Virus record (IMG/VR): IMGVR_UViG_2671181019_000011
Source: a virus
Lineage: Duplodnaviria; Heunggongvirae; Uroviricota; Caudoviricetes
Direction: 5' to 3' (one strand)
Length of the DNA stretch: 4,179 bases
Shown here: positions 2,651-4,179 of the stretch, one piece after another
Layout: each line of letters starts with the position of its first letter
Numbering within the stretch: position 1 is the first letter of the stretch
Program-made: the position numbers and the translations under genes
The notes under the pieces: generated by a model
The model's input: the letters and a program-made list of their open reading frames with translations, nothing else
The model's database searches: none
Told to the model about the DNA's origin: nothing

Positions 2651-3211
2651 ATGGTTGCCGTAAATCATATACCACACCTTGTACACACACAAACGGCCTT
2701 TGTGTGGCGTTTTCTGGCCCTGAATATCGGAGAAAAAAACCAGTTGATCGCCAGTGTCGAAAATAGCTATGATTCCCGCGCACCTCATAAAACGGGTGCC
2801 GGGATTGGCGTCCTGGGCAAAACTGAAGCGCATAACACGCGCCCCGCGTGTTTTTTTGTGCCGCATAGTCACACCTTATCAATGGTGGGCTGTACGGGGG
2901 CGGAGCAATCCGCGCCGGTTTCTTCAGTGTCCGGTTACGCCAACCCTGCACAGTCCGCCACCAGCGAAATTGGCGTTTCCGGTGGCGGTTATCTTAACCA
3001 CACTGAGGAGGCTGCCAACATGGCTACTATCCCTACCCTTGTACATTCTCAAACCGCCTTTCTCTGGCGCTTTATCATCTTTGGCGCGTCAGAACATCAA
3101 ATCATCCACGTAACCGCCTGGACGGAACGCGAAGCGCGTAGCCGTTGCCCGTCCGGTTGTGTTGCTGTATTCGCCGCCCGTATTCGTCAGGAGGTGTGCC
3201 ATGTGCAATAA
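2651..3211 (+). CDS. Tandem Icd-like (host cell division inhibitor Icd-like) ORF: two Icd-like modules in one frame (186 aa as sequenced); the first module may be frameshifted
   Basis: AGGAG at 2641-2645, ATG 2651, TAA 3209-3211. N-terminal motif IPHLVHTQTAFVWRF repeats as IPTLVHSQTAFLWRF at residue 124. The modules are joined by a Gly/Ser/Ala-rich low-complexity stretch that coincides with GC-rich RNA hairpins. Icd-like assignment is from remembered family motifs, not a search. Confidence 0.45.
   Translation: MVAVNHIPHLVHTQTAFVWRFLALNIGEKNQLIASVENSYDSRAPHKTGAGIGVLGKTEAHNTRPACFFVPHSHTLSMVGCTGAEQSAPVSSVSGYANPAQSATSEIGVSGGGYLNHTEEAANMATIPTLVHSQTAFLWRFIIFGASEHQIIHVTAWTEREARSRCPSGCVAVFAARIRQEVCHVQ
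2897..3011 (+). promoter_or_regulatory. Structured RNA region upstream of the second Icd-like start: two hairpins plus anti-SD pairing (candidate C4/CI-like antisense RNA or translational control element)
   Basis: Hairpin 1: 2898-2904 / 2909-2916 with GCAA tetraloop. Hairpin 2: CCGCCACC 2955-2962 / GGTGGCGG 2981-2988. Long-range pairing 2921-2930 (UCUUCAGUGU) with 3000-3009 (ACACUGAGGA) sequesters part of the SD (AGGAGG 3006-3011). Confidence 0.3.
3020..3211 (+). CDS. Icd-like protein, second module, expressed from an internal start (63 aa)
   Basis: Strong SD AGGAGG at 3006-3011 with 8-nt spacing to ATG 3020. Product MATIPTLVHSQTAFLWRF...TEREARSRCPSGCVAVFAARIRQEVCHVQ has the size and motifs of a small Icd-like protein. 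Confidence 0.55.
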   Translation: MATIPTLVHSQTAFLWRFIIFGASEHQIIHVTAWTEREARSRCPSGCVAVFAARIRQEVCHVQ

Positions 3212-3422
3212 AACCACACCGGACGCAGCAGCCGCCGCGCTCACTACGCTGATGCACGCGCTTATCGATATTGAATGCACTGCAGAGCTTGCGCAGGGAG
3301 AAGAACAGAAAGACCGGACACAGTTCGCCCTGGAATGTATCCGATACATCGCAACGCGGTCGCTGAATGACGCTAAAAATATTCTTGTTGCTGATTGTGA
3401 AAATGGGGGGGGTTATGCGTGA
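3201..3422 (+). CDS. Hypothetical small acidic protein (73 aa)
   Basis: AGGAGG at 3189-3194, 6-nt spacer, ATG 3201; overlaps the Icd-like stop by 11 nt. TGA at 3420-3422. An Ala-rich segment; no family recognised. Confidence 0.6.
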   Translation: MCNKTTPDAAAAALTTLMHALIDIECTAELAQGEEQKDRTQFALECIRYIATRSLNDAKNILVADCENGGGYA

Positions 3423-3648
3423 TGATCGTTTTAATTCCCTGAAACAAGAATTTTCCGGCGTTCCTGATGATGCGGCTGATGCGCTTTCGTCAATGCCAGA
3501 ACTTATTAGAGCGGCTTTTTTCTTACTTTCCACGAGAGAATATAAATCAACGGGGCTTGATGTACTGAATATCGCCGCCGATTATGCGGAATATGTGGCA
3601 GAGGCGCGTTATAGAAGAAAATTTCCTGAGGATGTAAGCCATGCGTGA
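3415..3648 (+). CDS. Hypothetical protein (77 aa)
   Basis: ATG 3415 overlaps the upstream stop within ATGCGTGA; a G8 tract (3405-3412) serves as SD. TGA at 3646-3648. No family recognised. Confidence 0.55.
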   Translation: MRDDRFNSLKQEFSGVPDDAADALSSMPELIRAAFFLLSTREYKSTGLDVLNIAADYAEYVAEARYRRKFPEDVSHA

Positions 3649-3874
3649 TATTTACCACCAAACAATAGACCGCGCATTTCTTGCACTTTCTCACAGTGAA
3701 AACATGCTGGAAATATTGCGCATATGGCTTGAAACACTTGGCGACAATGAACGCGACAAACAAAAATCAAGAATTGCCACGGCATTAATAACGCTTCTTG
3801 AGCCTGTAATAATGGAACTGCAAGAAATAGATCTATTGCACGACAGATATAAAGAACAGCACACCGGAGAATAA
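3641..3874 (+). CDS. Hypothetical protein (77 aa)
   Basis: ATG 3641 overlaps the upstream stop within the same ATGCGTGA motif; GAGGA 7 nt upstream. TAA at 3872-3874. No family recognised. Confidence 0.55.
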   Translation: MRDIYHQTIDRAFLALSHSENMLEILRIWLETLGDNERDKQKSRIATALITLLEPVIMELQEIDLLHDRYKEQHTGE

Positions 3875-3879
3875 AAATA

Positions 3880-4179
3880 ATGAAACTTAAATATTCTGGC
3901 TTAACTGCCAGTGGCAACACTCACCCTAAATTTACGCGCGGTGATATTTACCGCGACCAGTACGGCGGCACGGTAATGATTAAGGGCGTGGCGGGACGGT
4001 GCGTAACTTACCGCCGTGAAGGTTACGAATATGATTGCGTGATGCCTGTTTATCAGTTCCGGCGTGATTTTTCTCTGGTACAGACCGCGCCGCATAACGT
4101 GCCCACCAGCAACGCCAGGGCACGGGCAAACATCCAGAAGCTGAAAACCATGATTAACGGATTCAGGGGCAAGAAATGA
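3880..4179 (+). CDS. Hypothetical protein (99 aa)
   Basis: GGAGA at 3866-3870, 9-nt spacer, ATG 3880; TGA at 4177-4179 (window end). Basic C-terminus (ARARANIQKLKTMINGFRGKK). No family recognised. Confidence 0.6.
   Translation: MKLKYSGLTASGNTHPKFTRGDIYRDQYGGTVMIKGVAGRCVTYRREGYEYDCVMPVYQFRRDFSLVQTAPHNVPTSNARARANIQKLKTMINGFRGKK

What the first reader, a model, noticed from the sequence alone, without database searches (positions are those of the whole stretch)
3405..3422. G8 homopolymer at an overlapping gene junction; the ATGCGTGAT junction motif recurs 226 bp downstream
The G8 tract (3405-3412) sits in the last codons of ORF 3201..3422 and is the only SD-like element for ATG 3415. Losing one G would fuse the two ORFs in frame (...ENGGV-MRDDRF...). 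The next junction (3641-3649) uses the identical 9-mer ATGCGTGAT, and both downstream proteins are 77 aa starting with MRD, hinting at an old duplication or a conserved coupling signal.
Basis: seen in the sequence. Interest (0 to 1): 0.45.

Follow-up and report, generated by a model that had tools for sequence, protein, structure and literature searches.

The report
Slippage-prone poly-G at satellite gene junction
A run of eight G's between two small genes of an E. coli phage-satellite island changes length often among strains (7 to 11 G's), so the two genes are fused in some strains and separate in others; this is a real mutational hotspot of a familiar kind, and the function of the genes is unknown.

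Summary
G8 lies at 3405-3412, ORF1 stops at 3420-3422 and ORF2 starts at ATG 3415. ATGCGTGAT occurs exactly twice, at 3415 and 3641. The window is the early region of an E. coli PICI/cf-PICI-type phage satellite: integrase, AlpA-like gene, isrK and C4 antisense RNAs, an Icd-like ORF, then overlapping small ORFs leading to DUF4222 and the replication gene.

The G-run is hypervariable.
- IMG/VR elements: G7 23, G8 34, G9 18, G10 4, G11 2, interrupted 9.
- Complete E. coli genomes: G7 256, G8 155, G9 146, G10 21.
- A tree of 79 flank haplotypes needs at least 37 length changes, the same as with shuffled labels.

G7 and G10 give one fused protein of 144-155 aa. G8 gives the 8-nt stop/start overlap seen here. 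G9 gives ORF1 a 9-residue tail. No frame is purged, and ORF2 stays intact under purifying selection in every state.

Distant relatives have two separate genes, with a canonical GGAGG where the G-run sits. So the run is most likely ORF2's Shine-Dalgarno element, degenerated into a slippery homopolymer at a junction that tolerates frameshifts.

ORF2 and ORF3 are unrelated (hhalign 0.2%), so duplication is rejected. Adaptive switching is neither shown nor excluded.

The parts
3405..3412 (+). Poly-G run (G8 in this window): the hypervariable element. It encodes the Gly-Gly-Gly end of ORF1 and lies 2 nt before the ORF2 ATG.
   Evidence: Sequence. It is the only G6+ run in the window. Relatives carry G7-G11. 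At least 37 length changes are needed on a 79-tip tree.
3201..3422 (+). ORF1, 73 aa in the G8 state. It is the N-terminal module of the fused protein in G7/G10 relatives.
   Evidence: phrog_2512 positions 1-76 and phrog_5146. pN/pS 0.31-0.35. Stand-alone homologues of 72-76 aa exist.
3415..3648 (+). ORF2, 77 aa, starting MRDDRF. It is the C-terminal module of the fused protein in G7/G10 relatives.
   Evidence: phrog_2512 positions 78-154 and phrog_24341. Intact in 74/79 haplotypes in all frame states. pN/pS 0.29-0.39 in all states. Stand-alone 75-77 aa homologues start at the same Met.
3415..3422 (+). ATGCGTGA, the 8-nt start/stop overlap of ORF2 and ORF1 in the G8 state.
   Evidence: Sequence. 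Present at the ORF2 start in 79/79 haplotypes.
3440..3442 (+). TGA used as the ORF1 stop when the tract is G9, giving ORF1 the tail LCVMIVLIP.
   Evidence: Alignment of the G9 relatives and their annotation. 80-aa and 86-aa proteins.
3393..3444 (+). Island of complete nucleotide conservation around the variable tract: four codons before it and ORF2 codons 1-10.
   Evidence: Third-position diversity is 0 over this span, against about 0.2-0.5 elsewhere, in 60 haplotypes retrieved at protein level.
3407..3440 (+). Predicted mRNA hairpin in which the G-run pairs with UAAUUCCCU and encloses the ORF2 AUG. Weak evidence.
   Evidence: about -12 kcal/mol, z between -0.6 and -1.8, not significant. The same 3' arm is used in the second lineage.
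3641..3649 (+). Second ATGCGTGAT: the start of ORF3, overlapping the ORF2 stop (TGA 3646-3648).
   Evidence: At the ORF3 start in 59/79 haplotypes.
3641..3874 (+). ORF3, 77 aa, starting MRDIY. Unrelated to ORF2.
   Evidence: phrog_2196. No BLASTP alignment. hhalign probability 0.2%.
3020..3211 (+). Icd-like ORF, first cistron of the coupled operon. It overlaps the ORF1 start by 11 nt.
   Evidence: NF033153, E 1.4e-15. PGAP annotation in relatives.
2878..2965 (+). C4 antisense RNA gene, the immunity regulator upstream of the operon (context).
   Evidence: Rfam RF01695, 73.8 bits against a gathering score of 45.
2780..2856 (+). isrK RNA gene (context).
   Evidence: Rfam RF01394, 66 bits against a gathering score of 50.
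3880..4179 (+). DUF4222 gene, the next cistron. In relatives it is followed by a RepA helicase or a primase with an ATGA overlap (context).
   Evidence: PF13973, E 2e-23. Annotation of relatives.

Best explanation
The G-run is a replication-slippage-prone homopolymer. It sits at the Shine-Dalgarno position of ORF2, inside the last codons of ORF1. The junction belongs to a chain of translationally coupled small genes: C4 RNA, Icd-like ORF, ORF1, ORF2, ORF3, DUF4222, replication gene. The element is an E. coli PICI/cf-PICI-type phage satellite.

Shown: the run changes length often in evolution (7 to 11 G's), and this sets the relation between the two reading frames.
- 3n+1 (G7, G10): one fused protein with two modules joined by Gly-Gly(-Gly)-Val.
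- 3n+2 (G8, this window; G11): ORF1 stops at the TGA inside ATGCGTGA, overlapping the ORF2 start.
- 3n (G9): ORF1 gains the tail LCVMIVLIP and stops 25 nt into ORF2.

Inferred: ORF2 keeps its own ATG and a G-rich ribosome-binding stretch in every state, so both protein modules are still made whatever the length. No frame is therefore selected against, and the length drifts around 8. On this reading the junction tolerates frameshifts; it is not an ON/OFF switch.

Inferred: two separate coupled genes are the ancestral arrangement. The G-run arose from a GGAGG-type ribosome-binding site.

The repeated ATGCGTGAT is the conserved M-R-D start with an embedded TGA at two junctions of this mosaic operon. 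It is not a trace of gene duplication.
For: Variation
- The window has G8; two close relatives (96% and 94% identical over 1.2 kb) have G9.
- 90 IMG/VR elements: G7 23, G8 34, G9 18, G10 4, G11 2, interrupted 9.
- About 650 of 5426 complete E. coli genomes carry the junction. Exact matches: G7 256, G8 155, G9 146, G10 21.
- 6 of 10 flank haplotypes with several members carry more than one length.
- Fitch parsimony needs at least 37 changes on 79 tips, against 38.4 +/- 1.9 for shuffled labels.
- O111:H8 genomes have G9 or G10 at the same site.

Not an assembly artefact
- 15 of 15 sampled O157:H7/O145 complete genomes are identical, all G7, whatever their origin.

The frame is not selected
- Unique haplotypes: fused 21, G8-like 39, G9-like 19.
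- The length distribution is unimodal and shows no period of 3.

Both modules are maintained
- ORF2 is intact in 18/19, 20/21 and 36/39 haplotypes of the three frame classes.
- pN/pS is 0.29-0.39 in every class.

Two genes are ancestral
- Representatives at 50% identity include stand-alone ORF1-like (72-76 aa) and ORF2-like (75-77 aa) proteins, the latter starting at the same Met.
- In Salmonella and Raoultella the ORF2 homologue is a separate gene with GGAGG or GAGG 7 nt upstream and an ATGA or ATGTATGA overlap.

The G-run belongs to ORF2's start region
- A second E. coli lineage has an unrelated upstream gene ending ...GGKHA*. It carries CAG(6-10 G)(T)AAACATGCGTGAT before the same ORF2.

Structure
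- The AlphaFold model of the fused form shows two helical halves joined by a low-confidence linker at residues 70-89.
Against: - No expression data: that ORF2 is translated from its own ATG in all three states is inferred, not shown.
- The run ends only 2 nt before the ATG, which is short for a Shine-Dalgarno element. Only its 5' part has normal spacing.
- A fused-state lineage has lost the internal start (ATG to ATA), and the O157:H7 clone is stably fused. Fusion may therefore be the working form at least there.
- PGAP treats a G9 copy as a frameshifted pseudogene.
- An uninterrupted run persists in about 90% of diverse haplotypes. It sits inside a 52-nt island with no synonymous variation. 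Simple neutral drift does not explain this; it could mean selection on the run or on an RNA element.
Confidence: 0.55

Rival explanations
1. Adaptive contingency locus. The poly-G is kept by selection as a reversible switch. It toggles a helper-phage-interacting protein between a fused and a split form, or tunes coupling to the downstream replication genes. This would give the satellite population bet-hedging diversity.
For: - All frames are common and there is no phylogenetic signal, as is typical of phase-variable genes.
- The run stays uninterrupted in about 90% of haplotypes although synonymous diversity in the flanks is 0.15-0.38.
- A G-run precedes the same ORF2 in a second, unrelated upstream context.
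- An alternative ORF3 allele carries its own variable G5-G9 run.
- Contingency loci have recently been reported in coliphages T2 and T4 (preprint PMC12633550).
Against: - About 230 O157:H7/O145 complete genomes appear uniformly G7 (15/15 sampled), so switching is not fast at G7.
- The outcome is not ON/OFF, because both modules remain encodable.
- No phenotype or function is known. Pfam, NCBIfam, PADLOC and PDB searches found nothing for ORF1, ORF2 or the fused protein.
- The conservation of the run cannot be separated from that of the whole 52-nt island.
Confidence: 0.2
2. The single fused gene is the functional state. G8 (this window) and G9 copies are then ordinary inactivating frameshifts in a dispensable accessory gene, that is, pseudogenes in decay.
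For: - PGAP labels a G9 copy 'frameshifted'.
- Fused proteins are numerous, and phrog_2512 models the fusion.
- The O157:H7 clone is stably fused.
- A fused lineage tolerates ATG to ATA at the internal start.
Against: - Split states make up two thirds of diverse haplotypes.
- ORF2 is as intact and as constrained in split as in fused lineages.
- Distant relatives encode the two halves as separate genes with their own ribosome-binding site.
- In the second E. coli lineage ORF2 stands alone behind an unrelated gene.
Confidence: 0.12
3. Recoding. Ribosomal frameshifting or RNA-polymerase slippage on the G-run makes some fused protein from G8 or G9 templates, or some split products from G7. The DNA length would then matter little.
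For: - A run of 7 or more identical bases allows tRNA-Gly to re-pair in the -1 or +1 frame and allows transcript slippage (general knowledge).
- This would also explain why every frame is tolerated.
- A possible hairpin overlaps the site.
Against: - Programmed sites are normally fixed in length and in frame relation. Here the length is not conserved.
- There is no significant downstream stimulator: hairpin z is about -1.
- As far as I recall, transcript slippage in E. coli is documented mainly for long A or T runs. I did not check this in the literature.
Confidence: 0.08
4. Sequencing or assembly artefact. The homopolymer is miscalled and the true length is the same everywhere.
For: Homopolymers of 8-10 bases are error-prone on some platforms (general knowledge). 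No reads were available for this window.
Against: - The same lengths recur in hundreds of independent assemblies, both drafts and complete genomes.
- A large clone is uniformly G7, so the miscall rate at this site is low.
- Interrupted variants and substitution variants also exist.
Confidence: 0.03

Closest known systems
Simple-sequence contingency loci (phase-variable poly-G/poly-C tracts of Campylobacter, Neisseria, Haemophilus, Helicobacter), including tracts at the boundary of two ORFs that fuse or split them (I recall C. jejuni Cj0031/Cj0032 as an example; from memory, not checked here)
   Same: An uninterrupted G-run of 7 or more in coding sequence. Its length differs between closely related strains, and length changes shift the reading frame and fuse or split two ORFs.
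   Different: The host is mismatch-repair-proficient E. coli and the carrier is a phage satellite. The switching rate is unmeasured, and a large clone is stable at G7. The downstream module keeps its own start, so the change is fused versus split, not ON versus OFF. No phenotype is known.
Hypermutable tracts in phage genomes: contingency loci of coliphages T2/T4 (Gomez, Barrick and Waters, bioRxiv 2025, PMC12633550), and poly-G tracts of Campylobacter phages (from memory)
   Same: Homopolymer slippage creates frameshift diversity in a mobile viral element of enterobacteria.
   Different: Those cases have measured frequencies and a selectable phenotype (escape from host defence). Here there is only comparative evidence, and the element is a satellite (PICI/cf-PICI), for which my two literature searches found no such report.
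Phage P1/P7 immI operon (c4 antisense RNA, icd, ant), with translational coupling of icd to ant (established knowledge)
   Same: A C4 RNA gene (Rfam, 73.8 bits) and an Icd-like ORF are followed by overlapping downstream cistrons.
   Different: The downstream genes (ORF1, ORF2, ORF3, DUF4222, rep) are unrelated to ant. Control by C4 and coupling were not tested here.
Start/stop-overlap translational coupling (ATGA, ATGnnTGA) in phage and satellite operons
   Same: ORF1/ORF2 and ORF2/ORF3 overlap by 8 nt (ATGCGTGA). Distant relatives use ATGA or ATGTATGA at the same junction.
   Different: The ribosome-binding site is replaced by a variable homopolymer, so the overlap geometry differs between strains.
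E. coli PICI and capsid-forming PICI satellites (EcCICFT073, EcCIEDL933; Fillol-Salom 2018, PMC6092414; cf-PICI preprint 10.1101/2022.09.08.507074)
   Same: The same module order: int, alpA-like, small ORFs, DUF4222, rep/pri, then terS or capsid genes. The O157:H7 island next to roxA has the fused G7 gene, and the CFT073 island next to roxA has the split G8 pair.
   Different: In the one cf-PICI paper I searched, the small ORFs between alpA and rep are not characterised and the G-run is not mentioned. I infer, and did not verify, that the O157:H7 island is EcCIEDL933.

Membership tests
Simple-sequence contingency (phase-variable) locus | Uninterrupted homopolymer (about 7 or more) within or just before a coding region | tested here: met
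   G8 at 3405-3412. G7-G11 in 81 of 90 IMG/VR copies.
Simple-sequence contingency (phase-variable) locus | Tract length polymorphic among closely related strains, with repeated independent changes | tested here: met
   6 of 10 identical-flank haplotype groups hold several lengths. At least 37 changes on 79 tips. G9 and G10 both occur within O111:H8.
Simple-sequence contingency (phase-variable) locus | A length change alters the gene product | tested here: met
   Predicted from sequence and seen in annotated proteins: fused 144-155 aa, split 73+77 aa, or 80-aa ORF1. Protein expression was not measured.
Simple-sequence contingency (phase-variable) locus | High-frequency reversible switching within a clonal population | tested here: inconclusive
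   No reads or cultures were available. Indirectly, O157:H7/O145 genomes are uniformly G7 (15/15 sampled), while O111:H8 is mixed.
Simple-sequence contingency (phase-variable) locus | The alternative states have different phenotypes under fluctuating selection | not testable with these tools
   Function is unknown. No hits in Pfam, NCBIfam, PADLOC or PDB. The AlphaFold model has pLDDT 58.
Programmed ribosomal frameshift or transcriptional slippage site | The slippery run and the out-of-frame relation of the two ORFs are conserved among homologues | tested here: not met
   All three frame relations occur at comparable frequency.
Programmed ribosomal frameshift or transcriptional slippage site | A stimulatory structure or element next to the slippery site | tested here: inconclusive
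   A hairpin is predicted at 3407-3440, but it is no better than shuffled sequence (z -0.6 to -1.8). The region is invariant, so no covariation test is possible.
Paralogous pair from tandem duplication (ORF2/ORF3) | Detectable sequence or profile similarity beyond the first three residues | tested here: not met
   BLASTP finds no alignment. hhalign on family alignments gives probability 0.2%, E 0.36.
PICI / cf-PICI phage satellite | Integrase, AlpA-type regulator, replication gene, and a packaging gene (terS) or capsid module, in that order, within about 10-15 kb | tested here: met
   The window has int and an AlpA-like HTH, the latter below Pfam cut-offs (E 0.015-0.017). Close relatives continue with RepA helicase and terS, or with primase and capsid genes. 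Helper-phage induction was not tested.
P1-type immI module (C4 RNA / icd) | A C4 antisense RNA gene followed by an icd-like ORF | tested here: met
   RF01695 scores 73.8 bits (gathering score 45) at 2878-2965. NF033153 scores 57 bits (cut-off 25) at 3020-3208. The a1/b1 target hit is below threshold (21 against 46.7 bits).

The most novel reading that the evidence does not exclude
The poly-G is a selected, reversible switch built into the ribosome-binding site of a phage-satellite gene. By slippage, the satellite population continually produces fused, split and tail-extended versions of a two-module early protein, which may act on the helper phage. It may also vary translational coupling into the replication genes, hedging against different helpers or host defences. 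To my knowledge this would be the first simple-sequence contingency locus described in a phage satellite. The second variable G-run in an alternative ORF3 allele would make it a recurring design.
Probability: 0.15. Interest if true: 0.65.

Novelty: new member of a known kind. Interest (0 to 1): 0.4.

Why it matters
PICI and cf-PICI satellites are studied as agents of gene transfer and phage interference. Their small early genes between alpA and rep are uncharacterised.

- If the prototype-type islands differ only by a slippery G-run (O157:H7 island fused, CFT073 island split), constructs and annotations that treat the locus as one gene, two genes or a pseudogene are not equivalent. Strain-to-strain differences in satellite behaviour could trace to this run.
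- Current pipelines label the same locus 'hypothetical protein (x2)', a single CDS, or 'frameshifted', so there is an annotation problem.
- If the run proves to be a selected switch, it would extend contingency loci to phage satellites.
- If it is a neutral hotspot, as I think more likely, it is a clean natural example of a gene junction that tolerates all three reading frames.

Tried and rejected
- ORF2 against ORF3: BLASTP and hhalign on family alignments found no relationship, so duplication is rejected.
- Function of ORF1, ORF2 or the fused protein: Pfam and NCBIfam gave nothing. PHROGs gave only unknown-function families. PADLOC gave nothing. A PDB profile search gave nothing. tblastn against 50,697 phage records gave no match, so there is no detectable relative in deposited phages.
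- AlphaFold2 on a 20-sequence alignment gave mean pLDDT 58. That is too poor for a meaningful fold search, so none was run.
- The exact junction pattern in one genome per species (GTDB) matched only a Shigella flexneri genome. At nucleotide level the junction is therefore confined to E. coli/Shigella.
- RNA hairpin around the tract: predicted in all variants but not better than shuffles, and it cannot be tested by covariation because the region is invariant. I keep it only as a possibility.
- Compensatory frameshift: the ENGGGMRDD proteins turned out to be a T-to-G substitution (G7TT to G8T), not a second indel.
- Literature: searches for homopolymer or poly-G in PICIs, the EcCIMP1 paper and the cf-PICI paper do not mention this locus.
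- Not attempted: a metagenome scan, because the three other collections gave enough copies; and read-level analysis, because no reads were available.

Full report
**1. The observation**

The coordinates and arithmetic of the finding are correct.
- G8 is at 3405-3412.
- ORF1 (3201-3422, 73 aa) ends AAT GGG GGG GGT TAT GCG TGA.
- ORF2 starts at ATG 3415 in the +1 frame and is 77 aa.
- ORF3 (3641-3874) is also 77 aa, and both start with MRD.
- ATGCGTGAT occurs only at 3415 and 3641, against 0.05 expected from shuffles.
- The tract is the only run of six or more G or C in the window.
- Deleting one G gives ...ENGGVMRDDRF..., a junction that exists in natural proteins.

**2. Context**

The window is the left end of an E. 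coli phage satellite of the PICI/cf-PICI type. Its features, in order:
- a tyrosine integrase (1-1242);
- an AlpA-like helix-turn-helix gene (1739-1945; below Pfam cut-offs);
- a YlcI/YnfO-like gene on the minus strand;
- the RNA genes isrK (2780-2856) and C4 antisense RNA (2878-2965), both above Rfam gathering scores;
- an Icd-like ORF (3020-3211);
- ORF1, ORF2, ORF3 and a DUF4222 gene, joined by overlaps of 11, 8 and 8 nt and then a 5-nt gap.

In close relatives the chain continues, by an ATGA overlap, into a RepA-type helicase and later terS. In others it continues into a P4-type primase and capsid genes.

The same locus lies in the O157:H7 island next to roxA and in the CFT073 island next to roxA, which carries capsid genes. 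The cf-PICI paper I searched characterises int, alpA, rep and the packaging genes of such islands, not these small ORFs.

**3. The tract is hypervariable**

- Two relatives that are 96% and 94% identical to the window over 1.2 kb differ from it at the tract. Both have G9. One is annotated as two CDS, the other as a 'frameshifted' pseudogene.
- A pattern scan of IMG/VR returned 90 copies: G7 23, G8 34, G9 18, G10 4, G11 2, and nine interrupted runs.
- In complete E. coli genomes about 650 of 5426 carry the junction. Exact-length matches are G7 256, G8 155, G9 146 and G10 21. Nearly all alignments span the tract.
- Among 71 distinct flank haplotypes, 6 of the 10 with several members hold more than one length.
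- On a neighbour-joining tree of 79 unique flanks, parsimony needs at least 37 length changes. Shuffled labels give 38.4 +/- 1.9, so length carries no phylogenetic signal.
- Variation is not assembly noise. All 15 sampled rows of the O157:H7/O145 group, standing for roughly 230 complete genomes, are identical and G7. The related O55:H7 strain has one more base and a split annotation.
- The uniform G7 also shows that switching is not very fast, at least at G7. O111:H8 genomes carry G9 or G10 at the same chromosomal site.

**4. Consequences of length**

- 3n+1 (G7, G10) gives one protein of 144-155 aa. Many such proteins exist in E. coli, and GG and GGG versions alternate within each sequence lineage. 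phrog_2512 models the fusion: ORF1 matches positions 1-76 and ORF2 matches 78-154.
- 3n+2 (G8, G11) gives the arrangement of this window.
- 3n (G9) gives ORF1 the tail LCVMIVLIP and a stop at the position of 3440-3442.
- Among unique haplotypes the three classes number 21, 39 and 19. The length distribution is unimodal around 8 with no period of three. No frame is purged.
- ORF2 is intact in 74 of 79 haplotypes irrespective of class. pN/pS is 0.29-0.39 for both halves in every class, with synonymous diversity of 0.15-0.38. Both modules are real genes under purifying selection, and the split state shows no decay.

**5. Which state is ancestral, and what the run is**

- The family is small: 42 representatives at 50% identity among 1.8 billion proteins.
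- The more distant members are stand-alone ORF1-like proteins (72-76 aa) and ORF2-like proteins (75-77 aa). The latter begin at the same Met.
- In Salmonella and Raoultella satellites the ORF2 homologue is a separate gene in the same position, before DUF4222 and a primase. It overlaps its neighbours by ATGA or ATGTATGA, and a canonical GGAGG or GAGG lies 7 nt before the ATG.
- In a second E. coli lineage the gene upstream of ORF2 is unrelated and ends ...VIQGGKHA*. A G-run again precedes the same start: CAG(6-10 G)(T)AAACATGCGTGAT. This has normal Shine-Dalgarno spacing and again varies in length.
- I conclude that two coupled cistrons are ancestral, that the G-run occupies ORF2's ribosome-binding position, and that fusions are slippage products.
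- The AlphaFold model of a fused form is of low confidence (pLDDT 58). It shows two helical halves joined by a disordered linker at the junction, which is compatible with fusion being harmless.

**6. The repeated 9-mer**

- ORF2 and ORF3 are unrelated: no BLASTP alignment, and hhalign probability 0.2%.
- ATGCGTGA occurs only on the + strand in these elements. It is at the ORF2 start in 79/79 haplotypes and at the ORF3 start in 59/79.
- At ORF3 it is kept even where the upstream gene ends earlier at TAA. Other ORF3 alleles start MCD, MHD, MHN or MDK.
- Upstream genes of several unrelated types end ...(H/Y)A* on this motif.
- The motif therefore marks conserved gene starts at boundaries of a mosaic operon. 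A role in coupling or in module exchange is possible but untested.

**7. Unexplained**

- From four codons before the tract to ORF2 codon 10 (3393-3444) there is no third-position variation in 60 haplotypes retrieved at protein level. Elsewhere diversity is about 0.2-0.5.
- The island ends just after the stop used in the G9 frame.
- A hairpin pairing the G-run with UAAUUCCCU and enclosing the AUG is predicted in all variants and in both lineages. It is not better than shuffled sequence.
- Multi-frame coding, a translation-initiation structure, or recombinational homogenisation could each account for the island.

**8. Verdict**

The duplication idea does not.

- Best reading (about 0.55): a slippage-prone run derived from a ribosome-binding site, at a junction that tolerates frameshifts, in the coupled early operon of E. 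coli PICI-type satellites.
- An adaptive contingency switch (about 0.2) is not excluded. It is made somewhat more plausible by the persistence of the run, its recurrence in another context, and a second variable G-run in an alternative ORF3 allele.
- Pseudogenisation (about 0.12), recoding (about 0.08) and artefact (about 0.03) are less likely.

The kind of element is known. I found no report of it in a phage satellite. A 2025 preprint presents contingency loci in coliphages as new. The function of the genes remains unknown.

Noticed in passing
window 2651-2999 (overlapping isrK 2780-2856 and C4 RNA 2878-2965): The translation of this stretch matches Pfam Phage_ASH (PF10554, E 1e-11), and PGAP calls 'ash family protein' or 'Icd-like' pseudogenes here in relatives. 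Rfam assigns the same DNA to two RNA genes above their gathering scores. The protein family may partly be a translation of RNA genes.
   Followed up: no
related loci, about 300-350 nt downstream of the main tract (alternative ORF3 allele starting MDKIPF...), e.g. IMG/VR loci used: A second variable poly-G lies inside this ORF3 allele: GCCGAACA-G5/G7/G8/G9-ATTTATTTTCTGC. It gives the in-frame variants AERGGDLF and AEQGDLF, and a frameshifted product AEQGGGFIF...
   Followed up: partly
window 3393-3444: A 52-nt island with no synonymous variation among 60 diverse haplotypes surrounds the hypervariable run. It ends just after the stop codon used in the G9 frame.
   Followed up: partly
proteins P0002, P0003, P0006-P0010 (217-221 aa); EC4115 locus L172 3594-3806 and 3796-4260: In some elements an extra 70-72 aa ORF (MSQEITLQQ...) lies between the Icd-like gene and ORF1. 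It is sometimes called as one 217-221 aa protein fused to ORF1-ORF2, so a second junction of the chain also appears in fused and split forms.
   Followed up: no
L176 about 1735 (P0097 lineage) and L174 about 1730 (P0107 lineage): Two O157-like fused lineages carry point changes at the junction. One changes the internal start ATG to ATA. The other has a T-to-G change that turns G7TT into G8T (Val to Gly) without changing the frame.
   Followed up: yes
window 2651-2725 and 3020-3090: The N-terminal motif of the Icd-like ORF (..PTLVHSQTAFLWRF..) is repeated about 370 nt upstream (..PHLVHTQTAFVWRF..), before the isrK/C4 RNA genes. This recalls the duplicated C4 target regions of phage P1 immI (from memory). 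The Rfam c4-a1b1 hit at 2767-2819 is below threshold.
   Followed up: no
window 3629-3640, and relatives (ACGGGGATTAATATGCGTGAT; GGCAGGGGGTAATATGCGTGAT): The ORF3 start is preceded by GAGGA in the window. In relatives with the shorter ORF2 allele it is preceded by GGGGA or G5, so G-rich ribosome-binding stretches recur in front of the ATGCGTGAT starts.
   Followed up: partly
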